Positions 2,174 through 20,205 of a DNA stretch of 31,133 nucleotides are shown in pieces. The position numbers and the translations under genes were made by a program. Below the pieces are notes generated by a model. It did no database searches and was not told the DNA's origin. It saw only the letters and a program-made list of their open reading frames with translations. The DNA is from a virus: IMG/VR virus record IMGVR_UViG_3300045988_138131. One strand, given 5' to 3'. Position 1 is the stretch's first letter. The number at the start of each line of letters is the position of its first letter.

Positions 2174-2528
2174 AATATTCCCCCTCAATTTCTCCAGTTG
2201 TTGGATCTACATTGTCATAATAAAATTGTTCATACCAAGATGTAGACTCTTGACAAGTAGTAAATAGTTCATAAGTTTCCTCGTAAGCCATTTTCATACG
2301 AGCGTACTCTTGAGATAACTTGTCATATTCTGCTTGAAGTTTTATATTTTCTTCTTTTTGCTCTGTAGCAACTTCTGTAATGTCATTAGTCATTACTGTA
2401 CATATAGCACCCCAGAATAGGGAAACACATAAGAACATAAATAACATAATCATTACTAAAGCTTTAAATTCATTTGTTAGCGTATAATCAATGATGTCTT
2501 TTATTGTGTTTTTGATTTTAGTTTTCAT
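2166..2528 (-). CDS. Membrane protein, hypothetical
   Basis: TM segment ALVMIMLFMFLCVSLFWGAICTV. 4-nt overlap with the upstream gene. Confidence 0.5.
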   Translation of the reverse strand: MKTKIKNTIKDIIDYTLTNEFKALVMIMLFMFLCVSLFWGAICTVMTNDITEVATEQKEENIKLQAEYDKLSQEYARMKMAYEETYELFTTCQESTSWYEQFYYDNVDPTTGEIEGEYYE

Positions 2529-3070
2529 TTCTTTTTTTCCTTTCTTTTTTTATGTTCCCATTTAAACGGCTCTAATACTTCGTCAAAATAATCGTCTTCC
2601 CACATAAGATTAAACATAGGGCTTTCCACCTTATTATTGCAGTAGTCGGAAACGGTCTGATAAGAAATGTATAATTCTTTAGCGGCTTTTCTACTTGAAG
2701 GCCAGTCTCTTATAATCTCGCCGTTTTTAACTTCTACAACTCGTTTAGATTTTGATATATAGCCAGTTCGTTTACCAAGCTCTTTTAAAGATACAACTTC
2801 TAAATTTTTATAGTAATTATCAAATTCTATTTTATTTTTATGATAGACTCTATCATTAGAAGCTAATTGCTTAATAAAAGCATTAGCAACTAATCGAGCA
2901 CAGTTAAAATCTTTATCTTTAATCTTTACTAAAAATAGATTATGTTTTCTAAAAGGTTTTAAATATCTATAACCATTTTTAGGGTTTTTCTTTCTAAATC
3001 GTCCATAGCTTGATACTTGATAACGAGTATCGTATTCTATTGGCTTCCATAATTCATTAGCACTTATCAT
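2525..3070 (-). CDS. HNH homing endonuclease (NUMOD4-like N-terminus, HNH_3-like core, C-terminal HTH)
   Basis: WKPIEYDTRYQVSSYGRFRKKN (NUMOD4-like), VYHKNKIEFDNYYKNLEVVS (HNH_3-like), WPSSRKAAKELYISYQTVSDYCNNK (NUMOD1/HTH-like). Confidence 0.7.
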   Translation of the reverse strand: MISANELWKPIEYDTRYQVSSYGRFRKKNPKNGYRYLKPFRKHNLFLVKIKDKDFNCARLVANAFIKQLASNDRVYHKNKIEFDNYYKNLEVVSLKELGKRTGYISKSKRVVEVKNGEIIRDWPSSRKAAKELYISYQTVSDYCNNKVESPMFNLMWEDDYFDEVLEPFKWEHKKRKEKKK

Positions 3071-3593: not shown

Positions 3594-4301
3594 CTAATCT
3601 ATATCATTATCTTCATTTAACCAGTCATAGTCGATAAGCTCTATATCTGGATCCTTCCCCCTGGACTTTAAGTCCTCAATAAGTTGTTCCCGATAATCTT
3701 CGTGTCTTTTATTCCACTCGTCGAAAGTTTCGTTTCGGTGGTTTAATCTAAACTCCGTAGACTCCTTATTAGGACATATCTGTTTTTTCATGCAGTAGAA
3801 ACATGACTCCGATTTATAATCACTTCCTAAATGACAATAAAATTCTTTTGCGCGTGCGCTTTTATCACACACACTTTTTTTATTTTTAATATCAATATCA
3901 TTATCAATATCTATATCAATATCATTTTCAATATCAATGTCATTATCAATAGGGTTGTTTTCATAACCGTTCGGTTGTTCTAGGTTGTTTTCATAACCGT
4001 TCGGTTGTTTTTTAGCGGCGTTTTTATTTCCTTTTGGAGCACCGCCTTTTTGTCCATTTCTTTTATTTGTTTTACATTTTTCAATGTAGTTTTTTTTCTC
4101 AATGTCAATAGTTGCTTTCATAAAAGAAAAGGCCATATTGATAACTCTGTCATTATCAGAGTATTGAGGTAAAACACCATTTATTACGTAGTTATTTACG
4201 TCTCTTATAAGTCGCCCCAATTCAGAGTCAGTAAGTAGTTTAAAATGCTCATCATATTTTGCGTGCATTATATAATTGTCTTTTTCTTTAACGGCTTCCA
4301 T
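3594..4301 (-). CDS. Putative replication/origin-associated protein with internal tandem repeats
   Basis: The helical N-terminus followed by the basic KRNGQKGGAPKGNKNAAKK segment resembles firmicute phage replisome-organiser-like proteins (uncertain). It contains the QPNGYENN x2 and DIDI repeats, and the C-terminus is Cys-rich. Confidence 0.4.
   Translation of the reverse strand: MEAVKEKDNYIMHAKYDEHFKLLTDSELGRLIRDVNNYVINGVLPQYSDNDRVINMAFSFMKATIDIEKKNYIEKCKTNKRNGQKGGAPKGNKNAAKKQPNGYENNLEQPNGYENNPIDNDIDIENDIDIDIDNDIDIKNKKSVCDKSARAKEFYCHLGSDYKSESCFYCMKKQICPNKESTEFRLNHRNETFDEWNKRHEDYREQLIEDLKSRGKDPDIELIDYDWLNEDNDID
3953..4009. repeat. Two perfect 27-bp direct repeats (period 30 bp) inside the 235-aa ORF
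   Basis: ggttgttttcataaccgttcggttgtt occurs at 3953-3979 and 3983-4009. It is flanked at 3888-3950 by 6/12-bp periodic atatca(a/t)t repeats. Confidence 0.9.
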
Positions 4302-8893: not shown

Positions 8894-9946
8894 TTATTTT
8901 ATAGTTAATACTTGTCCTGGTTTAATTAAATTAGGGTTACTACCAATAACAGATTTATTATCATTGTAGATTTTTTGCCAAGTAGTACCATATTTAGAAG
9001 CGATACCACTTAATGTATCTCCACTCTTAACAGTATATGTTTTACTATTATTTGTAGTTGTATTAGTAGTTGTTGTTCCATTACCAGGTATTTTAATTTG
9101 TTGACCTACGTATATAAGATTAGGGTTACTTATATTATTGTAAGCAGCTAAAGTTTGATATGTAGTGCCATATTTAGAAGCAATACCACTTAATGTATCT
9201 CCAGCTTTAACTACATAAATTGTATCATTACTAGGAGCTGGTGTTGGTTGTGGTGTTGGTGTTATTGGATCTTGAGGCTTAACATCTGCGTTAGCACTAA
9301 AGCCATTTAAACCTTTTTGTTTCATAATGGCTGGGTAATCATAAAAAGCGTAGTTTTGATCTACAGTCATACCAGCTACTTTATTAGTTCTAATACGGTT
9401 AGTTTCTCCTCCAAATTGCCATAAACCACCAGCTGGGCTACTAGGCCTAGATGTTCCCCAGTTAGCTACCCATTTATCATATTTAGTTAATTGTGATAGG
9501 TCCATATAATTTTTAAACCAATTACTATTAGCATAAATACAAACATAATAACCTTTAGCTTCTAAGTATTCACAAAAACCTTTAATAGCATTTGTTACGG
9601 CTTGTTTTCCAGCTTTAGCTTGATAATAACTATCTTCTACATCAATAGCTATAGGGTACTCAAATTGTTTTCCCTTTAAGCAGTTATTATACATATATTC
9701 AGCTTCTGCTTTTCCGTTTTCGTATGTAGTTGCTCTTGAAAACCAATAAGCACCTACACCTAAGCCATTTGCTTTAGCATTTCTATAATGATTTTCAAAT
9801 TGGTTATCAACAGACTTACTAACTCCGTTACCATAACCAGTAAACCCAGCTCTTAATAAAGCAAATTTAACTCCTTCTGCTTTAGCAGTAGCTAGATTTA
9901 TTCCTCCTTGATATGTACTAATATCAATACCAAAAACTTTGTCCAT
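8894..9946 (-). CDS. Endolysin: GH25 muramidase plus two LysM domains
   Basis: [14 protein letters not shown]...GAYWFS is the GH25 signature. C-terminal [28 protein letters not shown]...GQQIKIP and [23 protein letters not shown]...GQVLTI are LysM repeats. Confidence 0.9.
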
Positions 9947-9958
9947 AATCAGACCTCC

Positions 9959-10207
9959 TTAATTATTAGTTATTTTTTTTAAGTTATTTCCTATGTCGTA
10001 AGCGCCACCAGCTATTAAACCACTCAATGCGATAGCAACGCTAAAATCTTTAGTTATTATGAACTCTATAATTGCTACAATAACGCCGATTAAGATATTT
10101 TGTATAGGTATTAAATGATTATTAAACCAGCTTACTTTTTTAGCAATTAAGCCACATAAAAAGGTTACTACCATAGTAACCAATACAACTATTGTTTCAA
10201 GTTCCAT
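9959..10207 (-). CDS. Holin
   Basis: 82 aa with three hydrophobic segments (VVLVTMVVTFLCGLIA, ILIGVIVAIIEFII, VAIALSGLIAGGAY). Immediately upstream of the endolysin. Confidence 0.65.
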   Translation of the reverse strand: MELETIVVLVTMVVTFLCGLIAKKVSWFNNHLIPIQNILIGVIVAIIEFIITKDFSVAIALSGLIAGGAYDIGNNLKKITNN

Positions 10208-10217
10208 TTCTCACACC

Positions 10218-10526
10218 TCACTTTCTTACAATTTCTTCTAAGTTATCTATTCTATGATGTGCTGATTTAGTAGAAGCCTCAACAGCCGAAAGTCTTTCTC
10301 CGATCTGTTGCATTGACTTTGTAAACTCTTTATTATCAAGTCTTATCTCGTCAATATTCTTACTAATCATATCTAATTTTGTATCTAGTCTAGTAGATGT
10401 AGCCACTTCCTCTTTAGTCTCTTGTTTAGTGTTTTTCTTACTATTCATATAAAAAGTGGCGTAACCAATTAAGCCACCAATTATAGTAAATACTAAACCT
10501 ATAGAAATCATAGTTGAACTTTCCAT
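10218..10526 (-). CDS. Membrane-anchored coiled-coil lysis-accessory protein (XhlA-like)
   Basis: N-terminal TM ISIGLVFTIIGGLIGYATFY followed by a coiled coil (LDTKLDMISKNIDEIRLDNKEF...RIDNLEE). Located in the lysis cassette. Confidence 0.4.
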   Translation of the reverse strand: MESSTMISIGLVFTIIGGLIGYATFYMNSKKNTKQETKEEVATSTRLDTKLDMISKNIDEIRLDNKEFTKSMQQIGERLSAVEASTKSAHHRIDNLEEIVRK

Positions 10527-11056
10527 TATTTAGATCCGTCGTCTTCCTCTGGAATAGTAGGAAATTCTACTTCAAAAGGAAAGTTCTTTTGTTTTGTGAT
10601 GTCTCTTAATTCTTGACGATAAGCAGCCCATTGTCCGTTTAAGACATCTCCTAAAGAAGAAAATAATTCTTTGATAACACTTAATAAAGTTGTGGTCGTA
10701 ATGTTATCTGGTATAGTTATACCTAATCTATCAATGAGTACGTGTTTATCACTTTCTGATAACAATTTATCTCTGATAGCTCTAATTTCAGCAGCCTTAG
10801 AAGCAACAAAACTTTGTTTAGCTAATTCCTTCCAAGTATCTAAGTTGTCGTTTATGTAATCTTCTAAATCGTCTCTACTGATTATTTTTATAGCATACTC
10901 ATAATAAGTATATATTGTTTCTTCTGTACCGTCTGTAGTAGTTCTTTTAACTTCTTCTATGTCGTCAAAAAAAACAACCTCTGTTAGGTTGTCCTTAATG
11001 TCTCCAATTCTAAAGTTACCAGGTCTTATTGTGCTTTCTACTTTTTTTACTTTCAT
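10526..11056 (-). CDS. Acidic protein, tail-fibre assembly chaperone-like
   Basis: IRAIRDKLLSESDKHVLIDRL resembles the R-x-LL-x-SD motif of fibre assembly chaperones. Strong AAGGAGG RBS. Overlaps the RT 3' end by 41 nt. Confidence 0.35.
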   Translation of the reverse strand: MKVKKVESTIRPGNFRIGDIKDNLTEVVFFDDIEEVKRTTTDGTEETIYTYYEYAIKIISRDDLEDYINDNLDTWKELAKQSFVASKAAEIRAIRDKLLSESDKHVLIDRLGITIPDNITTTTLLSVIKELFSSLGDVLNGQWAAYRQELRDITKQKNFPFEVEFPTIPEEDDGSK

Positions 11057-12080
11057 TTCTTATAACCTCCTTACACAATTTATAATTAACGTACGGTTTG
11101 ATATACTTTTGTTGATAATTATACGAGTCGCAGTGTTTAAGCCACCCGCTATAACTAAGCATGGCTGCTGCGTCGTGATAGGTTATATGATCTTTCTTAG
11201 CCATTTTTTTAGCACGCCTCTTAATTCTTAAAAAGTTACTTCTTCTTAAAGTGGTATAACCTCTGTAAAAACGATAACCCAAGAAATCAAGAGGCCTAGA
11301 CTCAGTCTTGAAAAGCTGCCAGTTTTCTTTAATTGTTAGCTTTTCTTTACTCAAGAAATTGTCTATTTCTATTTTGATTTTTCTTAATTCTTTTTTGTTG
11401 TTTGAAAATAATACCATATCGTCCATATAACGTACATAGTATTTTACTTTTAATTGTTCTTTTATAAAATGATCCAAATCTTGTAAATAAAAATTCGCAA
11501 ACCATTGACTGGTAAAATTACCAATAGGAATACCAGACTCGCTACTATCAATAATTAAGTCTATAAGATTTAGTGTGTCTTTATCTTTTATAACTCTACG
11601 AAATTTATTTTTCAATATTTGTTTGTCAATACTCGGGTAAAACTTCTTAACATCAAGTTTTAAGCAATATTTAGTATGTTTTCTATCTTGTACTAATATT
11701 TTTTTAATATGTCTCATACCACGCATAATACCTCTACCTTTTATAGAAGCACAACAGAACTCATACATACCTTTCATAATAATTGGCTCTAATTGAAGCA
11801 TTAAAGCCCAGTGTATTACCTGGTCTGGGTAAAAGCGAGGCTTATAAATAATTCTTTCTTTTTTATTAGCACCGTCTCTTATTTTCATTTCTACATATTT
11901 ATTAGGTACATAAGTTTTATTTATTAAAGCTTGTTGTACTTGCATAGCGTAATATGTAGGAGAGTCGAGTATTTTTTCAACACTTTTACGGTTGCCTTTA
12001 CCTTTACTAGCTCTGTAAATAGCAGTTTCAATATTGTTTAAATCTGTGATTTTTTCATAAATGTTACCTTTTCTTTTCAT
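11016..12080 (-). CDS. DGR reverse transcriptase
   Basis: PIGNFTSQ is the DGR-specific (I/V/L)GxxxSQ motif and YVRYMDDMVLF is the YxDD catalytic box. 354 aa, directly downstream of the TR array. Confidence 0.92.
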   Translation of the reverse strand: MKRKGNIYEKITDLNNIETAIYRASKGKGNRKSVEKILDSPTYYAMQVQQALINKTYVPNKYVEMKIRDGANKKERIIYKPRFYPDQVIHWALMLQLEPIIMKGMYEFCCASIKGRGIMRGMRHIKKILVQDRKHTKYCLKLDVKKFYPSIDKQILKNKFRRVIKDKDTLNLIDLIIDSSESGIPIGNFTSQWFANFYLQDLDHFIKEQLKVKYYVRYMDDMVLFSNNKKELRKIKIEIDNFLSKEKLTIKENWQLFKTESRPLDFLGYRFYRGYTTLRRSNFLRIKRRAKKMAKKDHITYHDAAAMLSYSGWLKHCDSYNYQQKYIKPYVNYKLCKEVIRNESKKSRKHNKTW

Positions 12081-12227
12081 AATTAAATCTAGTCCTTATA
12101 ATTCTTATATTTGCCTACCGCTTTTTCGAGAAATTCTATATTTCAAGAGATAAACCTACTAGAGCAGCCTAGAACGACTAATTTTTAGCAAGCGCTAAGG
12201 AAAATGATGTGTAAGGATCTTTAATGT

Positions 12228-13313
12228 AAGTAGTCGAGCTCCGTTGTTGGTACTCGTAACAGCTGAGTCATTGCTACAGTTCCAATACCACAAACCACAA
12301 CGAGAAAAGTCCCAAAACATACCGCCGACAAGAGCCGAAAGTATGAACAACAGAACTACACACACCAAGTCCCACATAATATAAGTGGTCGAGCTCCGTT
12401 GTTGATGTTCGAATTAGCTGAGTCGTTGTTACAATTCCAACACCACAAACCACAACGAGAAATATCAGGCCAAGCACCGCCGACAAGACTCGAAAGGTAA
12501 ACAACCGAAACACACACACCAAGTCCCAATTATACAAGTGGTCGAGCTCCGATGTTGTCGTTATAATCAGCCGAAGTGTTATTCAACGTCCAACACCACA
12601 AACCACAATAACTACCATTGAGCCAGCGACCGCCGACAAGAGAAGTAGTCAAGAGTAAGGAGCACACACACCAGATCCCTTTATTAAATTAAGTAGTCGA
12701 GCTCCGACTGTGGTAGCAGCCAAACTGGAGTCATTATTACAATTCCAATACCACAAACCACAATAAAGTGCGTCGTTCCATTTACCGCCGACAAGAGCGA
12801 ACTAACAACGCAATAGCCGAAACACACACATCAAGTCCCACAACAATACAAGTGGTCGAGCTCCGATGTCGTCCCACACAATACTAGAGTCGTCGTTGCA
12901 ATGCCAATACCACAAACCAGCACTAGCTGCATTGGCGTAACCACCGCCGACACGAACGACTAAAAGGGAAACATCGAAACGTACACACCAAGTCCCACAA
13001 TAATACAAGTGGTCGAGCTCCGACCGAAGAACTGTAAAACCCAAAGTCTCCAAGACAACGCCAGTCAGAGATACCACAAAAAGAGTGATCACTCCAACTA
13101 CCGCCGACAAGAGCAAGCGAGAAAAGTAAAGGCCGAAACGCACACACCAGATCCCTTATCAAATTAAGTGGTCGAGCTCCGATCTGGTCCCCAGCGTCAG
13201 AAGATAGACTCAAAAAAGCAAAGTCAAACCAACCACACTGAGAAGACTCATACCAGCGACCGCCGACACGAGCGACTAACAAGAGAAAATCGAAGCTTAC
13301 ACATCAAGTCCCA
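12228..13313 (-). repeat. Array of seven tandem TR-like cassettes (U1-U7), period 153-159 bp
   Basis: 101-bp cores at 12233-12333, 12388-12488, 12541-12641, 12696-12796, 12855-12955, 13012-13112 and 13171-13271. All are bounded on the - strand by TGTCGGCGGT...CGGAGCTCGAC and separated by 38-44-nt leaders plus 8-11-nt AT-rich spacers. Confidence 0.9.
12388..12488 (-). other. DGR template repeat (TR; cassette U2)
   Basis: Gap-free 101-bp alignment to VR with 9 mismatches, all at TR adenines on the - strand. In frame it reads NCNNDSANSNINN using AAY codons. Confidence 0.9.
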
Positions 13314-13397
13314 TTTTTTAAATGGCGCGTCGCCGACTTAAAGTCGGTATATAATTTAATTTATTTTATGGGAGGCTGGCCGCCCCCAAACCCCCGC
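13311..13397 (-). promoter_or_regulatory. GC-rich island and three short palindromes downstream of VR (candidate target-recognition hairpin / terminator)
   Basis: gggaggctggccgcccccaaacccccgc (13370-13397), ccgacttaaagtcgg (13333-13347), ggcgcgtcgcc (13324-13334), ccattttttaaatgg (13311-13325). Confidence 0.4.
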
Positions 13398-14515
13398 TAA
13401 CTAGTTTTAAGAAGTCGAGCTCCGATGCCGATGTACGAAACAGCTGAGTCGTTGCCACAATGCCAACACCACAAACCACAACGAGAAATATCAGGCCAAG
13501 CACCGCCGACAAGAGCGATACGTTTCTCATTAGCACACCAGTAATAATCTGTAGTGTATGTGCTACTACTTCCTCCAACATCAGTAGCTAACGCTACAAG
13601 AGGGTGTTTTGGATCATAACCTAAGCCTGTAACATAACTACCACTTGTAGAGTTATTTACATAACCTAGTTTTTGATAATCTCCAGTAAATACATCAGAA
13701 GCATAAGTATTAGGGTTGTAATTTATATAAGCTTGATAATTATTTATATTGATACCGTCAACAAATTGCCATACGTTACCGAATATATCTTCAACACCAC
13801 GATAAATTACAGAACTTGTATCGTTTCCAGCTGCGCTACCAGACTTCATACCTAGTTTATCGCAGCCACCACTTTTAATAGCTCCTGTGTTATTAGCATT
13901 AGTAAACCCAGCTCCTAATTTTGACTGTGCGTTATAGTCTGCATATTCTACTAAATATAACATTTGTAATATAAAGTAGTGCCAGTCTAATTGTTGCCAA
14001 CCAGAGCCTAAGTTTTTAGCATATTGCCTAAAATTAGCTATCGTAGTATTTACAAGTGGAGAGTAACCACTTCTACTAAATACTCCAGAACTAGATCCAG
14101 ACATTGTATAACGTCCTATCATAAATTTATCACTCTTAACAAAGCCGTCTAAATTGTCCTTTGATATTAAGACATATTCGTAGCCGTCAGAGACATATCT
14201 TTTATAATAAAATTCTGGAATAATAGTTAATACTTGTCCATTACTACCAGTAAAGGAGAAATTAGCGTCTCCATAGTAAGCAACTATCTTTTTTGAAGTA
14301 TTATTATAATTACAAGTAATTATATCACTCCATGGGTAAATACTGTCGAAGTTATTAACGACCGCAGTAGTTCCCACTTGAGCATTAGCTACTAAACCTA
14401 CAGAGTCCTTAATTCTTTCCCAAGCAGAAGAAGACGATTTTATATTTCTTCTTACACCATATACTTTACTAATATTTACTGATTTTTTATTACCGACATT
14501 TATCATACCTATCAT
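13397..14515 (-). CDS. DGR target: distal tail-fibre / receptor-binding protein with C-type-lectin (FGE-like) fold tip
   Basis: YRGVEDIFGNVWQFVDGI and the C-terminal LVGGAW...CGLWCW...GARLL are typical of CLec/FGE-like DGR variable proteins. VR occupies the last 35 codons. GAGGAGG RBS. Confidence 0.85.
   Translation of the reverse strand: MIGMINVGNKKSVNISKVYGVRRNIKSSSSAWERIKDSVGLVANAQVGTTAVVNNFDSIYPWSDIITCNYNNTSKKIVAYYGDANFSFTGSNGQVLTIIPEFYYKRYVSDGYEYVLISKDNLDGFVKSDKFMIGRYTMSGSSSGVFSRSGYSPLVNTTIANFRQYAKNLGSGWQQLDWHYFILQMLYLVEYADYNAQSKLGAGFTNANNTGAIKSGGCDKLGMKSGSAAGNDTSSVIYRGVEDIFGNVWQFVDGININNYQAYINYNPNTYASDVFTGDYQKLGYVNNSTSGSYVTGLGYDPKHPLVALATDVGGSSSTYTTDYYWCANEKRIALVGGAWPDISRCGLWCWHCGNDSAVSYIGIGARLLKTS
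13414..13514 (-). other. DGR variable repeat (VR) at the 3' end of the tail-fibre gene
   Basis: Differs from TR at 13425, 13428, 13429, 13435, 13440, 13441, 13455, 13456 and 13462 only. Encodes HCGNDSAVSYIGI. Confidence 0.9.
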
Positions 14516-14516
14516 A

Positions 14517-15437
14517 TTAAGACGCCTCCTCTAAATCATAATTAGATAATTCATAAGTTATAGTTATAGAAATATCTTCAACAGGTTTAACACTTGTTAT
14601 AATTTTATAACCACCATTATATGAACTAATATAAGCGTCATTTAGCTTTATTTGATTATCTAAATCTAAATGTCCAGTAACTAAGGTATCGGTCGTGATA
14701 CCAGCTTTAATTATATCATATTCATACCTATTTGTGGAACTATTTAACAACCAATTACCTGGTGTAAGTGTTTTAACCTCGCTTTTTAAGCTATTACCAA
14801 CTATCTCCATTATCTGGTTAGTTAGATGTCCTGCAGCGTCAGAGTCTAGTTGATTTTTTATTTGATTAAACCAAGTTGTAAAAGAAGCTTCGGTTGCAGT
14901 TATATACTCATTATATTTAGTATATAATTGATCGTATATTTCCTCTGTGTTTAATGTTTCTACAGTAGAAGCAACCACGCCACATACAGACTCCTCAAAT
15001 CTTGTGTCTGTAATATTAGACTGTGTTATAGATGTTACACTAGAACCTACATATATCTCAGCTAATTTAATATCATAAATAGTTGAGGATCTAACTAAAG
15101 CTGGAGCCGAAGGGTTATCAGAGAAAGCCCCTTTGATTATTTGAGCTGATATTAACCTATTAGTTAAATCTAATCGAACAACAACATTATCAATTCTTTT
15201 TAATGTTCCGTCGGCCGTTTCTATTGTTTTAATTAGATCCCCAGTATTAGTATAACGGTAGCCTTCAATATTGGCGTCTCCTTCTTGTATTGTGATAGTC
15301 ATATCATTATTTGATATGACTTTTAACTCATTGTTGAAAATACCATTTGTAAAGTATTTTTTTAAGTGGCGAGCGAAGTCTTCTGCGTAGTAGACTCTGT
15401 CGTCGTTTATGTCGTTAAAAAAACTAAACTTTTCCAT
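14517..15437 (-). CDS. Tail-fibre / upper baseplate-like structural protein
   Basis: The N-terminal DDRVYYAEDFARHLKKYFTNGIF...RIDNVVVRLD pattern recurs in Gram-positive phage fibre/baseplate proteins. Lies between the Gp37-like protein and the DGR target. Confidence 0.45.
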   Translation of the reverse strand: MEKFSFFNDINDDRVYYAEDFARHLKKYFTNGIFNNELKVISNNDMTITIQEGDANIEGYRYTNTGDLIKTIETADGTLKRIDNVVVRLDLTNRLISAQIIKGAFSDNPSAPALVRSSTIYDIKLAEIYVGSSVTSITQSNITDTRFEESVCGVVASTVETLNTEEIYDQLYTKYNEYITATEASFTTWFNQIKNQLDSDAAGHLTNQIMEIVGNSLKSEVKTLTPGNWLLNSSTNRYEYDIIKAGITTDTLVTGHLDLDNQIKLNDAYISSYNGGYKIITSVKPVEDISITITYELSNYDLEEAS

Positions 15438-15454
15438 AATGTCCTTCCTTTCTT

Positions 15455-16510
15455 TTAATCTTCATTTTCGAACGTTTCTGCAATAGGTGTACCATAGACT
15501 GGTGTTACGTTGTGTTTTCCTTTTTCGATAACTTCTTCAACTTCTGTAATTCTTTGTTTTTGTGCTATTTCCCAAGTTTCTTTTTTGATATTAACAATAT
15601 CTCCTAAGTCCCAGTATTTTCTATAATGTGTAGCGTGTACAGTGGCCTCGAAGTTCTCGGTAGGAACTGTTATTTTTTCTTGTCCTAAATTATCTAATAT
15701 AGCGTTATATTCAGTAGTAGATAAATCTTTATTACTTTGACTTTTTGCGTCTACAAAAGCCTCTCTAATATCAAAGTCGTGTGTATCTGTTGTAACCTTC
15801 GTTACAGTTCTTAATATTCTAGCTGAGTCTTCGCCAGTTCCACCAACTAAAACATCAGTAATCATATTTTTACGACTATATGTATATTCTGCTGCGTCTA
15901 AGTTTGATTTATCTTCGCTAAATTCATATCTAGTATTAACTTTCTGTTCTTCTGTTCGGTCTTTACCGACATAATTAACATATTTATACTTTCTATTTTT
16001 TAAATCTAAGACAATTTTAGCTCCAATATTTGAAGCTCTTGATAGTTTTTCGTGATAATCATACACATTTTTATATGTACATTGAAAATCTACTTTATCG
16101 CTAGTAATATCACTGTCTGTAATTTCTAATAAAGAAAAAGCTCTCATTGTAGTTAAGAGCTTTCTAAATGCGCCTATATAGTTACCACTATAATTTATAC
16201 GTGTCTTTATTATTCTTCTTTTTAATAACGATAAACCAAAACTACCATATACAGTTATAGTAACTTTGTCTCCGTCGTCCTTAAACTTCCAAGACTCTAT
16301 AATTCCGAACTCGTCATTTTCTGTTAAATCACTTCTAACTATGATATTATCATAATTTAAAAGTTTAAAATTGTTTTTAGTAAGGTTTAAACTAAGTTCG
16401 AACTCGCCAGCTTCAAAATATTTACGACGCCAGCGTAGAGAACTATAACTGTCTATAACACCAAGCGGCTTTAAATCACGATCATATACATTTAATGATA
16501 TAGCTTCCAT
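15455..16510 (-). CDS. Siphovirus Gp37-like tail protein (Tal-position)
   Basis: The N-terminus LNVYDRDLKPLGVIDSYSSLRWRRKYFEAGEFELSL resembles the ReqiPepy6 Gp37-like family. Follows Dit. Confidence 0.55.
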   Translation of the reverse strand: MEAISLNVYDRDLKPLGVIDSYSSLRWRRKYFEAGEFELSLNLTKNNFKLLNYDNIIVRSDLTENDEFGIIESWKFKDDGDKVTITVYGSFGLSLLKRRIIKTRINYSGNYIGAFRKLLTTMRAFSLLEITDSDITSDKVDFQCTYKNVYDYHEKLSRASNIGAKIVLDLKNRKYKYVNYVGKDRTEEQKVNTRYEFSEDKSNLDAAEYTYSRKNMITDVLVGGTGEDSARILRTVTKVTTDTHDFDIREAFVDAKSQSNKDLSTTEYNAILDNLGQEKITVPTENFEATVHATHYRKYWDLGDIVNIKKETWEIAQKQRITEVEEVIEKGKHNVTPVYGTPIAETFENED

Positions 16511-19543: not shown

Positions 19544-20182
19544 CTCCCAAACCGTAATCTTTCATAATGTCTTCTGCGCTTCGCATTTTCTTTTTTGGCT
19601 TTTGCTCTAGTTGTGGAACAAAAGTTTTTTCGTGCGATAATTTCTTAACAATTTCGTTAATTAGTTTAGGTAATTCGGTTTCTTTTTTAATACCATTATC
19701 TAAACACTCGCCCAATAAAAAAGACGGCTTGTCCTCAAACCATTCAATACCGCCATAATGCTTATATAATATTCGTAAGACCTCCGCAGTGCCGATACTT
19801 ACGCTATAGATAAAAAACTCGCAACACCTGGTAATTTACTTATTTCCTTAAATAATGCGATTATATCTTCATTTTCTGCTTTTTCTAAAGCAAGTTTTAA
19901 ATCTTCTTCATATTTTTTATTTTTTTCTGTTTTAATATCTTCTGTATCTTCATCAGTAAATACTGGTTTAGAAGGGTAATAACCTCTATAATTAGCTACA
20001 AAAGTATAAACTTCTTTTTCGCATTTATAAATTCTAGTAATAATCAAAGTTATAAGAGCAGCTCCTAATTTTTCTCGATCTTCTTTTTCGTCTCCAGTAT
20101 TAAAATCTAAATTTTGCAATTCTTCTTTAATGTCCATTTTATCTATAATTTCACTTAATAATAATAAATATTTTGTTTTCAT
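19527..20182 (-). CDS. Tail assembly chaperone G-T fusion via -1 programmed frameshift
   Basis: The -1 frame is open from 19835 to 19527. The heptamer T TTT TTA (19811-19817, - strand) lies in the zero frame 4 codons before the G stop. Confidence 0.6.
19799..20182 (-). CDS. Tail assembly chaperone (G-like)
   Basis: 127-aa acidic protein between the major tail and tape measure genes. A slippery site lies at its 3' end. Confidence 0.7.
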   Translation of the reverse strand: MKTKYLLLLSEIIDKMDIKEELQNLDFNTGDEKEDREKLGAALITLIITRIYKCEKEVYTFVANYRGYYPSKPVFTDEDTEDIKTEKNKKYEEDLKLALEKAENEDIIALFKEISKLPGVASFLSIA

Positions 20183-20205
20183 TTCTTTTTTTCCTTTCTT
20201 TTTTT

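What the first reader, a model, noticed from the sequence alone, without database searches (positions are those of the whole stretch)
12228..13514. Seven tandem, length-locked TR-like cassettes between the DGR target and its RT: possible multi-template DGR / silent-cassette archive
On the - strand, seven direct units of 153-159 bp lie between the VR at the end of the tail-fibre gene and the RT start. Each has a 101-bp core: U1 12233-12333, U2 12388-12488, U3 12541-12641, U4 12696-12796, U5 12855-12955, U6 13012-13112, U7 13171-13271. Every core is exactly the length of VR (13414-13514) and is bounded by the same invariant ends as VR (TGTCGGCGGT ... CGGAGCTCGAC). All seven are stop-free in the VR frame and encode paralogous versions of the last 35 residues of the lectin-fold tip. 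VR: LVGGAWPDISRCGLWCWHCGNDSAVSYIGIGARLL. U2: LVGGAWPDISRCGLWCWNCNNDSANSNINNGARPL. U1: LVGGMFWDFSRCGLWYWNCSNDSAVTSTNNGARLL. U3: LVGGRWLNGSYCGLWCWTLNNTSADYNDNIGARPL. U4: LVGGKWNDALYCGLWYWNCNNDSSLAATTVGARLL. U5: RVGGGYANAASAGLWYWHCNDDSSIVWDDIGARPL. U6: LVGGSWSDHSFCGISDWRCLGDFGFYSSSVGARPL. U7: RVGGRWYESSQCGWFDFAFLSLSSDAGDQIGARPL. Only U2 is the template of the present VR. The other six differ from it at many non-adenine (framework) positions, so they are not just mutagenised copies. Canonical DGRs carry one TR. Here the sequences that delimit TR-to-VR transfer are kept in every cassette and no core has an indel, while the linkers between cores drift in length (38-44 nt). That pattern fits a library of alternative templates or donors. 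Cassette choice would swap the VR scaffold, and adenine mutagenesis would then diversify it, like vls/pilS silent cassettes coupled to a retroelement. The region is also compositionally distinct, about 48% G+C in the TR core by hand count and strongly G+T-rich on the coding strand, in an AT-rich genome. I know of no described DGR with this layout, but I cannot search databases here. The null alternative is that these are decaying relics of duplication, since U6 and U7 have lost the CGLW motif.
Basis: partly seen in the sequence, partly recalled or inferred. Interest (0 to 1): 0.93.

Follow-up and report, generated by a model that had tools for sequence, protein, structure and literature searches.

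The report
Retroelement with a library of templates
A gut prophage carries a mutagenic retroelement (DGR) with seven tandem templates instead of the usual one, and related phages show that different templates, and halves of two templates, have rewritten the same tail-fibre tip.

Summary
Seven 101-nt TR-like cassettes lie between the VR (13414-13514) and the RT gene, all with the VR's exact end motifs. The present VR differs from U2 at 9 positions, all U2 adenines.

The multi-template reading is supported by comparison. Arrays of 2-10 cassettes occur in 42 distinct related loci. In 36 of these the VR matches its own cassettes, with 254 adenine-site mismatches against 16 others. The matching cassette ranks from T1 to T8. 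Eight VRs are two-cassette chimeras joined at the conserved CGLW motif.

I examined 54 alleles of this same target gene. They sit on U1, U2, U4, U5 or 'ab' scaffolds, or on chimeras that also use U3. None sits on U6 or U7.

None of 243 distinct cassettes has an in-frame stop, and lengths are 98, 101 or 104 nt. Some cassettes are adenine-mutagenised copies of others.

Each cassette has its own upstream RNA strand. Only one complementary strand and one Sp RNA (Rfam RT-18) follow U1. This suggests that alternative pairing selects the template, which is inferred, not shown.

I found no published description of this layout. I class it as a new variant of a known kind.

The parts
13397..14515 (-). 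Target gene, 372 aa: tail / receptor-binding protein whose C-terminal tip is diversified
   Evidence: ORF. phrog_5302 'tail protein', E 2e-63. The AF2 model built on a 44-sequence alignment has pLDDT 81 and pTM 0.85. Its best PDB matches are the DGR variable proteins TaqVP 5vf4 (E 1e-7) and Mtd 1yu0-4. No Pfam hit.
13414..13514 (-). VR (variable repeat), the last ~33 codons of the target gene
   Evidence: 9 mismatches to U2, all at U2 adenines. It is the only unit followed by the TTCTTAAAAC flank and the GC hairpin.
13370..13413 (-). VR-only 3' flank: TTCTTAAAAC (cassettes have YACTTA here), the stop codon, and a GC-rich hairpin GGGGGC-GGCCA-GCCTCCC
   Evidence: Read directly. The flank is invariant in 52 VRs, whereas cassettes have YACTTA. 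The stem changes on both sides in relatives (GGGGGT/ACCCCC in L024, GGGGGC/GCCCCC in L032). It is analogous to the BPP-1 hairpin/cruciform (PMC3240598).
13331..13350 (-). Second hairpin (CCGACTTTAAGTCGG) between the VR and the array; terminator-like, function not tested
   Evidence: A hairpin at the same place is present in relatives.
13299..13312 (-). 5' element of U7 (GGGACTTGATGTGT), the upstream strand of the TR-bracketing RNA helix
13171..13271 (-). Cassette U7 (12 A, lacks GLW; never seen in a VR)
13142..13155 (-). 5' element of U6
13012..13112 (-). Cassette U6 (12 A, lacks GLW; never seen in a VR)
12983..12996 (-). 5' element of U5
12855..12955 (-). Cassette U5; its scaffold is found in many VR alleles of this gene
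   Evidence: the L171 chimera U2|U5
12826..12839 (-). 5' element of U4
12696..12796 (-). Cassette U4, at the hypervariable middle position of the array. Its scaffold is found in the VRs of L164, P0127 and P0137, and in the 5' half of P0002
12666..12679 (-). 5' element of U3
12541..12641 (-). Cassette U3; its 5' half is found in chimeric VRs (U3|U2, U3|U1, U3|ab)
12514..12527 (-). 5' element of U2
12388..12488 (-). Cassette U2, the template of the present VR
   Evidence: 9 A-site and 0 non-A mismatches
12360..12373 (-). 5' element of U1
12233..12333 (-). Cassette U1; templates the VR in L081/L177 and in several protein alleles
12199..12214 (-). The single 3' element TTACACATCATTTTCC, the downstream strand of the helix (analogue of the BPP-1 avd:Sp 'cPRT Stop' duplex)
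   Evidence: Only one copy in the array region at <=2 mismatches, and none elsewhere in the window. Covariation with 5' elements in single-TR relatives: 99.2% of cells paired, 4 of 12 pairs with compensatory changes, 0 of 500 shuffles as good on three measures. 352 of 376 array 5' elements keep all 8 core pairs.
12104..12197 (-). Sp RNA: Rfam RT-18 motif (RF03021). It opens with a short stem-loop, TAGCGCTTGCTA, followed by AAAA
   Evidence: 51.9 bits against a gathering score of 41.3, E 1e-8. RT motifs were described next to RT genes, and RT-10 lies in the BPP-1 spacer (PMC5737381).
11016..12080 (-). Reverse transcriptase, 354 aa
   Evidence: Pfam RVT_1, E 9e-19. phrog_1423, E 1e-114. IGNFTSQ and YMDD motifs read.
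10526..11056 (-). Tail-fibre assembly chaperone; its ORF overlaps the RT 3' end, so the DGR sits between the fibre gene and its chaperone
   Evidence: Pfam Phage_tail_APC, E 1e-12. phrog_4912.

Best explanation
This is a diversity-generating retroelement of a temperate siphophage of uncultured gut Bacilli. Its single template repeat has been replaced by a tandem array of alternative template cassettes.

Shown: each cassette keeps the two ends it shares with the VR, the reading frame, freedom from stops, and adenines placed at codon positions 1 and 2 (AAY codons). In natural populations the one VR at the tip of the C-type-lectin-fold tail protein has been rewritten, with adenine-specific mutagenesis, from many different cassettes. 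About a fifth to a third of VRs are chimeras of two cassettes joined at the conserved central CGLW motif. So the scaffold is swapped, by whole or half cassettes, and adenine mutagenesis then diversifies it. Arrays gain, lose and fuse cassettes quickly. Occasionally a cassette is an adenine-mutagenised copy of another.

Inferred (about 40% confidence): the whole array is transcribed as one RNA. Every cassette carries its own upstream 'Stop' strand 24-29 nt before it and the conserved YACTTA 3' flank. Only one downstream strand and one Sp RNA (RT-18) follow the last cassette. Alternative pairing of that single strand with one of the seven upstream strands would set which cassettes are reverse-transcribed. 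Homology at the shared ends and at the central motif would then decide which stretch replaces the VR.

U6 and U7 are probably spent, adenine-depleted relics.
For: - Canonical DGR signature for the window's VR and U2: 9 A-site mismatches, 0 others.
- 42 distinct relatives carry a VR plus 2-10 cassettes. In 36 the VR is explained by the locus's own cassettes, with 254 A-site against 16 non-A mismatches. The templates rank T1 to T8 from the RT. Examples: L022 T6 (12/0), L007 T3 (12/0), L026 T4 (7/0), L016 T7 (2/1).
- Eight chimeric VRs have at most 1 non-A mismatch in either segment (seven have none). Their junctions fall at columns 30-39.
- Within the window's own lineage, the VR sits on U1, U2, aa, ab, en, U3|ab, U2|U5, U5|U3 or a U4 type.
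- 54 protein alleles of the same gene are compatible with U1, U2, U4, U5, ab and many two-cassette chimeras.
- 0 of 243 cassettes has an in-frame stop, against 113 and 233 in the other two frames; 25% of shuffles are stop-free. Lengths are 98, 101 or 104 nt. The A fraction by codon position is 0.23, 0.22 and 0.08. AAY codons number 864 against 37 AAR.
- Adenine-mutagenised cassettes exist inside arrays. L088 T2 derives from T4 with 10 A-site and 0 other changes (P = 4e-7). Three to four such events are seen.
- The helix between the 5' and 3' elements covaries. There is one 3' element and one RT-18 per array.
- BPP-1 needs an upstream:downstream duplex followed by a stem-loop and adenosines for cis-primed reverse transcription and for termination (10.1101/2023.10.23.563531).
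- The target's predicted fold matches TaqVP and Mtd.
Against: - There are no reads, RNA or cDNA data, so template use is inferred from assembled sequences of different samples.
- Six of 42 VRs are not explained by their own arrays. One of them (L197) matches a cassette found only in other phages.
- Some VRs are identical to a cassette (L167, L186). Some contigs fuse the target gene to an unmutated cassette. So some assembly collapse is present in the data.
- No Avd gene was found next to the RT.
- The priming site and the template:primer duplex could not be identified.
- If the single 3' strand pairs with a distant 5' element, the enclosed RNA holds several cassettes. How one cassette is then chosen is open.
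- Single-sequence folds of the Sp and of the VR hairpin are no better than shuffles.
- The conservation of the 5' elements was measured on pattern-selected sites, so it is partly circular.
Confidence: 0.8

Rival explanations
1. One active template slot. Only the cassette at one fixed position next to the Sp is ever reverse-transcribed. The other cassettes are silent DNA donors that recombine into that slot, as in an expression-site model.
For: RT-proximal cassettes are used most: T2 0.33, T4 0.23, T1 and T3 0.15 per available cassette. Arrays do recombine, since hybrid cassettes and copy-number changes are seen.
Against: VRs differ only at adenines from cassettes that today sit at ranks 5-8. 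Examples are L022 and L165 T6, L016 T7, L174 T5, and the T8 segment of L020. L026 T4 is the VR-proximal cassette of its array. Each of these would need a rearrangement right after homing.
Confidence: 0.07
2. RT-independent gene conversion, as in pilS or vls. Cassettes are copied into the VR by homologous recombination, and the DGR only mutagenises afterwards from one TR.
For: Chimeric VRs with junctions in a shared motif look like segmental gene conversion.
Against: After such a conversion, adenine-only differences to the donor scaffold could arise only if that same cassette were then reverse-transcribed. 254 of 270 VR-to-template mismatches are at template adenines. The shared ends are only about 15 nt long, which is short for RecA-type exchange.
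Confidence: 0.05
3. Decaying relics of duplication: only U2 is functional and the rest are drifting.
For: U6 and U7 are A-poor, lack the conserved GLW residues, and never appear in 54 alleles or in the VRs of the window's lineage.
Against: No in-frame stop in 243 cassettes; only in-frame length changes; AAY codon design is kept. Most cassette types are seen in VRs.
Confidence: 0.03
4. Extra cassettes are templates for other VRs located elsewhere in the phage or host genome (a multi-target DGR).
For: DGRs with remote targets are known (PMC5758913). L197's VR uses a cassette that is not in its own array.
Against: The window has no ninth copy of either end motif. The single VR itself uses the various cassettes.
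Confidence: 0.04
5. Assembly artefact: a short-read assembler expanded or scrambled one TR/VR pair.
For: Some contigs clearly collapse the VR onto a cassette. One short contig (L191) is scrambled.
Against: The same cassette order was assembled independently in at least 9 contigs from different projects. Cassettes are only 53-81% identical to each other, so they are not confusable at k >= 21.
Confidence: 0.01

Closest known systems
Canonical diversity-generating retroelement (Bordetella phage BPP-1 mtd-avd-TR-brt; Thermus TaqVP DGR)
   Same: - An RT with the IGxxxSQ and YMDD motifs.
- TR-to-VR transfer with adenine-only changes.
- The VR lies at the 3' end of a C-type-lectin-fold receptor-binding protein.
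- A VR-only 3' flank plus a GC hairpin.
- A structured spacer RNA before the RT.
- An upstream:downstream RNA duplex bracketing the template, followed by a stem-loop and adenosines.
   Different: - Seven (2-10 in relatives) tandem templates for one VR instead of one.
- Each template has its own upstream duplex strand, but all share one downstream strand and one Sp.
- VRs are often chimeras of two templates.
- Templates themselves are sometimes adenine-mutagenised.
- No Avd gene was found beside the RT.
Multi-TR entries in DGR catalogues
   Same: More than one TR is annotated at one RT locus. [quoted passage not shown]
   Different: In those reports the TRs are listed, or paired with separate VRs, or removed as problem cases. 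In the texts I searched I found no tandem array, no alternative use for one VR, and no chimeras.
Silent-cassette antigenic variation (Neisseria pilE/pilS, Borrelia vlsE/vls)
   Same: A tandem, untranslated archive of in-frame partial gene copies lies next to one expression site. Conversions are segmental (mosaic), and conserved flanks and internal motifs guide the junctions.
   Different: Transfer here carries the signature of an RNA intermediate and an error-prone RT (adenine-only changes). It adds point diversification on top of scaffold choice. This comparison rests on general knowledge of those systems, not on a test made here.
Phage tail-fibre switching by DNA inversion (Mu Gin, P1 Cin; plasmid shufflons)
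   Same: The phage or plasmid swaps alternative C-terminal receptor-binding segments from a stored set.
   Different: Those systems use a site-specific recombinase and inverted repeats. Here the repeats are direct, no invertase is implicated, and the copy is non-reciprocal (the cassette is retained). No recombinase search was made.

Membership tests
Diversity-generating retroelement (DGR) | Reverse transcriptase of the DGR type (RT domain with the [ILV]GxxxSQ motif and YxDD) | tested here: met
   Pfam RVT_1, E 9e-19. phrog_1423, E 1e-114. IGNFTSQ and YMDD read in the translation of 11016-12080. That these motifs mark the DGR clade is from my own knowledge. No RT phylogeny was made.
Diversity-generating retroelement (DGR) | A TR/VR repeat pair whose differences fall at TR adenines | tested here: met
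   VR against U2: 9 A-site and 0 non-A mismatches. Across 36 related loci: 254 A-site against 16 non-A.
Diversity-generating retroelement (DGR) | The VR lies at the 3' end of a target gene encoding a variation-tolerant ligand-binding fold (usually C-type lectin) | tested here: met
   The VR covers the last ~33 codons of ORF 13397-14515. The AF2 model (pLDDT 81) best matches TaqVP 5vf4 (E 1e-7, probability 1.0), then Mtd 1yu0-4. Sequence-only searches were negative or non-significant.
Diversity-generating retroelement (DGR) | A target-site marker at the VR 3' end (IMH differing from the TR's IMH*) followed by a GC-rich hairpin | tested here: met
   The VR has GCTCGAC-TTCTTA (TT invariant in 52 VRs). 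Cassettes have GCTCGAC-YACTTA. The hairpin GGGGGC/GCCTCCC follows only the VR, and its stem changes on both sides in relatives. The loop is 5 nt (GGCCA), not the 4-nt GRNA consensus of PMC3240598. The single-sequence fold is not significant.
Diversity-generating retroelement (DGR) | A structured RNA around the TR: an upstream:downstream duplex plus a spacer RNA before the RT | tested here: met
   A 12-bp helix: 99.2% of cells paired, 4 pairs with compensatory changes, and 0 of 500 shuffles as good on three measures. Rfam RT-18 scores above its gathering score. The BPP-1 counterpart is described in 10.1101/2023.10.23.563531.
Diversity-generating retroelement (DGR) | An accessory gene (Avd or HRDC) next to the TR or RT | tested here: not met
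   No ORF lies between the VR and the RT. The neighbouring ORFs (8894-11056, 14517-16510) gave no Avd (23S_rRNA_IVP) or HRDC hit in Pfam, NCBIfam or PHROGs. DGRs without an identified accessory gene exist, so I do not treat this as excluding membership. The rest of the window was not scanned for Avd.
Diversity-generating retroelement (DGR) | One TR serving the VR(s) (canonical architecture) | tested here: not met
   Seven cassettes here and 2-10 in 42 relatives, with several of them used for the one VR. This is the point of departure from the known kind.
Silent-cassette gene conversion (pilS/vls type) | An untranslated array of partial gene copies beside a single expression site, with segmental conversion | tested here: met
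   Array anatomy. The array region holds 9-18 stops in every frame when read through the linkers. Chimeric VRs.
Silent-cassette gene conversion (pilS/vls type) | Transfer by DNA homologous recombination, without an RNA or RT step | tested here: not met
   VR-to-donor differences are adenine-specific (254 of 270), which is the signature of DGR reverse transcription. A direct test needs an RT mutant.

The most novel reading that the evidence does not exclude
The array is a self-renewing, two-way library. Any cassette, or half cassette, can be written into the VR. In addition, mutagenised cDNA or VR sequence is occasionally written back into cassettes. Variants that worked would thus be stored and could later be recombined with other halves. 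Adenine-depleted cassettes would act as fixed 'memories' that restore a given tip without mutagenesis. Template choice would be made at the RNA level, by competition of the n upstream strands for the single Sp-linked strand. Compatible cassettes might also be exchanged or used in trans between co-resident phages.
Probability: 0.3. Interest if true: 0.92.

Novelty: new variant of a known kind. Interest (0 to 1): 0.88.

Why it matters
DGRs are understood as one invariant template diversifying a fixed scaffold at its adenine-encoded positions. Here the scaffold itself is selectable from a stored set and can be shuffled by halves. That multiplies the reachable sequence space and lets framework positions change.

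The usual rule that the template is protected from mutagenesis also seems to leak, because some cassettes are adenine-mutagenised copies of others.

The layout also gives a handle on open mechanistic questions. One Sp with many upstream strands is a natural experiment on how the upstream:downstream duplex defines where reverse transcription starts and stops. It also bears on how short end homologies direct cDNA integration.

The family is abundant in human-gut metagenomes; single 90%-identity clusters of the target protein hold 700-1300 distinct sequences. It therefore matters for phage-host dynamics of uncultured gut Bacilli.

For engineering, a multi-template DGR suggests a way to diversify one site from several programmable templates.

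Tried and rejected
- Megablast of 11000-14600 against INPHARED phages gave no match, so no annotated relative was available.
- Pfam, NCBIfam and PDB sequence searches of the target protein gave nothing significant. A profile of 16 C-termini hit only 5vf4 at E 0.59.
- Single-sequence AF2 was useless (pLDDT 30). The alignment-based model worked.
- Single-sequence folding of the Sp RNA and of the VR-flank DNA was no better than shuffles. I relied on covariation instead.
- I looked by eye for a BPP-1-like template:primer duplex between the 10 nt before the 3' element and the cassette 3' ends. I found no convincing or covarying pairing, so the priming site is left open.
- I tested whether cassette divergence in general is adenine-biased. 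It is not: in 368 close pairs, 47% of differences in the cores involve an A, against 57% in the linkers. Only a distinct tail of pairs is A-specific.
- I checked whether chimera polarity follows array order, as processive template jumping would predict. Both orders occur, so sequential partial homing is at least as likely.
- The promoter/terminator scan of the array gave only weak consensus hits.
- Literature searches found no description of tandem alternative templates.
Full report
**1. The observation**

On the - strand, the 372-aa ORF 13397-14515 ends with a 101-nt unit at 13414-13514.

The end motifs TGTCGGCGGT and GGAGCTCGAC each occur exactly 8 times in the 31-kb window, only at these units. 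Chance would give 0.25 and 0.43. Tandem Repeats Finder reports the array with periods of 153-159.

The units are 53-81% identical to one another. The VR is 92% identical to U2. All 9 VR/U2 differences lie at U2 adenines, with none elsewhere. U1, the next best, has 14 non-A mismatches.

G+C is 46.9% in the array against 31.3% for the window.

Two corrections are needed:
- The gaps between cores are 52-58 nt, not 38-44.
- In relatives the core length is 98, 101 or 104 nt, so it is locked to the frame rather than to an absolute length.

**2. Context**

The window is a siphovirus-type prophage. It encodes a tape-measure protein, Dit, a Gp37-like protein, a holin, and a GH25-LysM endolysin.

The RT has an RVT_1 domain (E 9e-19). 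It matches PHROG 1423 'reverse transcriptase' (E 1e-114) and carries IGNFTSQ and YMDD.

The target matches PHROG 5302 'tail protein'. Sequence searches gave no fold assignment. An AlphaFold2 model built on 44 homologues (pLDDT 81, pTM 0.85) best matches two DGR variable proteins. These are TaqVP (5vf4; E 1e-7, probability 1.0) and then BPP-1 Mtd (1yu0-4). Homologues at 55-60% identity carry Mtd_N, tail-collar, BppU_N or prepilin N-termini.

The closest genomic relatives are prophages in MAGs labelled uncultured Bacilli, Bacillales, Tenericutes, Mollicutes or 'Mycoplasma sp.' from gut samples. No Avd or HRDC gene was found near the RT. The ORF overlapping the RT's 3' end is a tail-fibre assembly chaperone.

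**3. The array is real and widespread**

I collected about 200 related loci in four ways:
- the RT protein against viral contigs;
- the RT protein against genomes;
- a VR-flank pattern against viral contigs;
- a VR-specific pattern against metagenomes.

Arrays of 2-10 cassettes occur in 42 distinct loci that also hold the VR. All have an RT at least about 74% identical to the window's. More distant relatives, and some close ones, have the canonical VR plus one TR.

In the window's own lineage the order VR-U7-U6-U5-[1-2 variable cassettes]-U3-U2-U1 was assembled independently in L198, L174, L081/L177, L178, L205, L171, L194, L003 and L002. L004 has only U3-U2-U1. This rules out an assembly artefact for the array itself and shows rapid gain and loss of cassettes.

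**4. Which cassette templates the VR?**

For each locus I compared the VR with every cassette of the same array. I counted mismatches at cassette adenines separately from other mismatches, and allowed a mosaic of cassettes with a switch penalty.

In 36 of 42 loci the VR is explained with at most 2 non-A mismatches per segment. The total is 254 adenine-site mismatches against 16 others.

The template's rank, counted from the RT, varies:

| Rank | Loci |
|---|---|
| T1 | L081, L097, L188, L189 |
| T2 | window, L004, L008, L009, L084, L090, L180, L193, L198, L202 |
| T3 | L007, L013, L186, L192 |
| T4 | L026, L095, L167, L172, L178, L205 |
| T5 | L174 |
| T6 | L022, L165 |
| T7 | L016 |

Clean examples (A-site/non-A mismatches) are L022 T6 (12/0), L007 T3 (12/0), L026 T4 (7/0) and L188 T1 (13/0).

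Eight VRs are two-cassette chimeras with at most 1 non-A mismatch in either segment; seven of them have none. All junctions fall at alignment columns 30-39, inside the conserved TGTGGYTTGTGGT (CGLW) motif. They are L003 T3|T4, L020 T1|T8, L087 T1|T2, L088 T1|T4, L171 T2|T4, L183 T6|T2, L194 T5|T2 and L175 T3|T6.

Use per available cassette falls with distance from the RT: T2 0.33, T4 0.23, T1 and T3 0.15, T5-T8 0.05-0.12.

**5. Population test in the window's own gene**

The target protein falls in 90%-identity clusters with 707 and 1127 distinct member sequences. I read 60 members of four such clusters. For the 54 that cover the VR, all with the flank NEKRIA or a close variant, I asked which cassette each is compatible with. 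A codon may vary only if the cassette codon contains an adenine.

With 0 incompatible codons:
- several alleles sit on U1;
- four on U2;
- two on U4;
- about a dozen on U5;
- two on the 'ab' cassette.

About twenty are half-and-half chimeras: U3|U2 (5), U3|U1 (2), U4|U2, U2|U1, U5|U1, U1|U2, aa|U5, ab|U5, ab|U2, U2|ab, ej|U1 and dz|U5.

None is compatible with U6 or U7.

L164, which shares the window's 25-nt VR 5' flank, has a U4-scaffold VR with adenine changes.

**6. Constraint on cassettes**

Among 243 distinct non-VR cassettes, none has a stop in the VR frame. In the other two frames 113 and 233 do, and only 25% of composition-matched shuffles are stop-free. 240 of the 243 are 98, 101 or 104 nt long.

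Adenines make up 23%, 22% and 8% of codon positions 1, 2 and 3. AAY codons outnumber AAR by 864 to 37.

The cassettes are never translated in place; read through the linkers, the array has 9-18 stops in every frame. These features therefore mean the cassettes are selected through what they write into the VR.

U6 and U7 are the exception. They have 12 A each. The near-invariant Leu and Trp residues of the family's GLW motif are only partly kept in U6 and lost in U7. Neither is ever used. They are probably spent relics.

**7. Cassettes are also rewritten**

Divergence between orthologous cassettes is not adenine-biased in general. In 368 close pairs, 47% of differences in the cores involve an A, against 57% in the linkers.

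However, I examined 190 ordered pairs of cassettes in verified array context that differ at 5-16 sites. Nine of these have at least 80% of their differences at the 'parent' adenines, with fewer adenines in the 'child'. The examples are:
- L088 T4 to T2, in one array: 10 A-site, 0 other, P = 4e-7;
- the window-type U2 to T2 of L026 and L197: 8-9 A-site, 1 other;
- L021 T6 to the orthologue in L166, L180 and L185: 8 A-site, 1 other;
- L191 T3 to T1: 5 A-site, 1 other.

Half-cassette cases also exist. The 3' half of 'ej' in L194 is a mostly adenine-mutagenised copy of the 3' half of U1. L171 'dz' is a fusion of a 'ci'-type 5' half with the 3' half of U3.

So mutagenised cDNA, or the VR itself, is occasionally copied into cassettes. 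Unequal exchange at the central motif also fuses neighbouring cassettes.

**8. RNA anatomy**

In single-TR relatives, a 14-nt element (GGGAYTTGRTGTGT) lies 29-36 nt upstream of the TR. A 16-nt element (TTACACATCATTTTCC) lies 13-28 nt downstream. They form a 12-bp helix with 99.2% of cells paired. Four pairs show compensatory double changes, for example GATATGT/ACATATC, GACATGT/ACATGTC and AATGTGT/ACACATT. None of 500 shuffles reached the observed score on three measures, and slid controls collapse.

The downstream strand is followed at once by a short stem-loop and AAAA. This opens a match to Rfam RT-18 (12104-12197; 51.9 bits against a gathering score of 41.3). RT-18 is one of the motifs found next to RT genes. 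A sister motif, RT-10, lies in the BPP-1 spacer (PMC5737381).

This mirrors the BPP-1 'cPRT Stop'. That is an avd:Sp duplex, then a stem-loop, then A-minor adenosines. It is required for cis-primed reverse transcription and marks where the cDNA ends (10.1101/2023.10.23.563531).

In the arrays, every cassette has its own upstream strand. The window copies are at 13299, 13142, 12983, 12826, 12666, 12514 and 12360, each 24-29 nt before its cassette. There is only one downstream strand (12199-12214) and one RT-18, both after U1. 352 of 376 upstream strands keep all 8 core pairs with the single downstream strand, whatever their rank.

All cassettes also keep a conserved 3' flank, YACTTA. The VR has TTCTTA there (TT invariant), followed by a GC hairpin whose stem changes on both sides in relatives. 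This recalls the IMH/IMH* difference and the hairpin/cruciform of BPP-1 (PMC3240598).

**9. Mechanism**

Shown by sequence: one VR is rewritten, with adenine mutagenesis, from many cassettes and from pairs of cassettes.

Inferred: the array is one transcript. The single Sp-linked strand pairs with one of the alternative upstream strands, which sets how far reverse transcription runs. The shared ends (about 15 nt at each side) and the central 13-17-nt motif then guide integration.

The chimeras fit what is known for BPP-1, where 5' integration needs only TR/VR homology and may involve template switching (PMC3240598). A cDNA from one cassette could replace only the 3' part of a VR that was previously written from another cassette. 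Both polarities of chimera occur, so sequential partial homing is at least as likely as a jump by the RT.

I could not locate the priming site.

**10. Rivals**

- A single active slot fed by DNA shuffling is contradicted by clean adenine-only templates at ranks 5-8.
- RT-independent gene conversion cannot give adenine-only differences to the donor.
- Relics of duplication are contradicted by the frame, stop and codon constraints and by observed use, except for U6 and U7.
- Remote extra targets are not needed, and none is in the window.
- An assembly artefact is excluded for the array. However, collapsed contigs do exist: L161, and proteins reading into a cassette linker.

**11. Comparison and novelty**

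The element meets the tested DGR criteria, except for an adjacent accessory gene and the single-TR architecture.

DGR surveys mention loci with two or more TRs. They do so as catalogue entries, as TRs paired with separate VRs, or as cases set aside (PMC11661182, PMC6642488, PMC12386605). The two largest surveys do not discuss them in the text I could search.

I found no description of any of the following:
- a tandem array of alternative templates for one VR;
- half-template chimeras;
- mutagenised templates;
- many upstream strands sharing one Sp.

The literature tool covers only open-access papers and bioRxiv, so prior description elsewhere cannot be excluded.

**12. Verdict**

This is a new variant of a known kind, with high interest. 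The template-choice mechanism and the write-back of variants into the array remain to be shown experimentally.

Noticed in passing
L191 (OFGJ01009686.1), whole 1825-nt contig: A unit with the VR-type 3' flank and GC hairpin sits inside an array. GGAGCTCGAC-type cassettes lie upstream of it and GGTGCTCGAC-type cassettes downstream. It is either a chimeric assembly or a recombinant between two phage lineages.
   Followed up: no
L161/L001 contig; proteins P0003, P0142, P0143, P0154, P0158: The target gene reads straight into an unmutated cassette and its linker. P0143, for example, is U4 plus the U4 linker. This is either assembly collapse of the VR onto its template or a real VR-cassette deletion.
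   Followed up: partly
L197 compared with L026 (identical 4-cassette arrays): The L197 VR sits on an L004-type U3 scaffold that is absent from its own array. Possible causes are loss of the cassette after use, recombination, or templating in trans by a co-resident phage with the same end motifs.
   Followed up: partly
L027/L187, between the VR and the single TR: A 5' element is followed by TGTCGG|AGCTCGAC, an internally deleted cassette. This 'single-TR' relative therefore once had at least two cassettes.
   Followed up: no
L008, L020, L022, L088: the linker after T2: The linker holds a degenerate copy of the 3' element (ATACACATTA or TTACACATCA) directly before T1's 5' element. This looks like the footprint of a whole-unit duplication that included the downstream strand.
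   Followed up: no
window 12104-12197 (-): The Rfam motif RT-18 (RF03021), described only as lying near RT genes, is here the spacer RNA of a DGR. It starts right after the strand that pairs with the element upstream of the template.
   Followed up: partly
Homologues of the target protein: The same C-terminal domain (55-60% identity) is joined to prepilin-type N-termini (PF07963) in some hits. In others it is joined to Mtd_N, tail-collar or BppU_N. Single 90%-identity clusters hold 700-1300 distinct sequences.
   Followed up: no
window 2519-2551 and 20173-20205 (- strand; approximate bounds): An identical 33-nt stretch, ATAAAAAAAGAAAGGAAAAAAAGAAATGAAAAC, spans the start codons of two unrelated ORFs (2166-2528 and 19799-20182).
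   Followed up: no
window 3888-4009: AATATC repeated about 10.7 times, directly followed by a perfect 30-nt direct repeat. It lies inside or at the edge of ORF 3594-4301 (-). It could be an iteron-like or origin region.
   Followed up: no
window 10526-11056 against 11016-12080: The RT ORF overlaps the start of a tail-fibre assembly chaperone gene by 41 nt. The whole DGR (array plus RT) is therefore inserted between the fibre gene and its chaperone.
   Followed up: no
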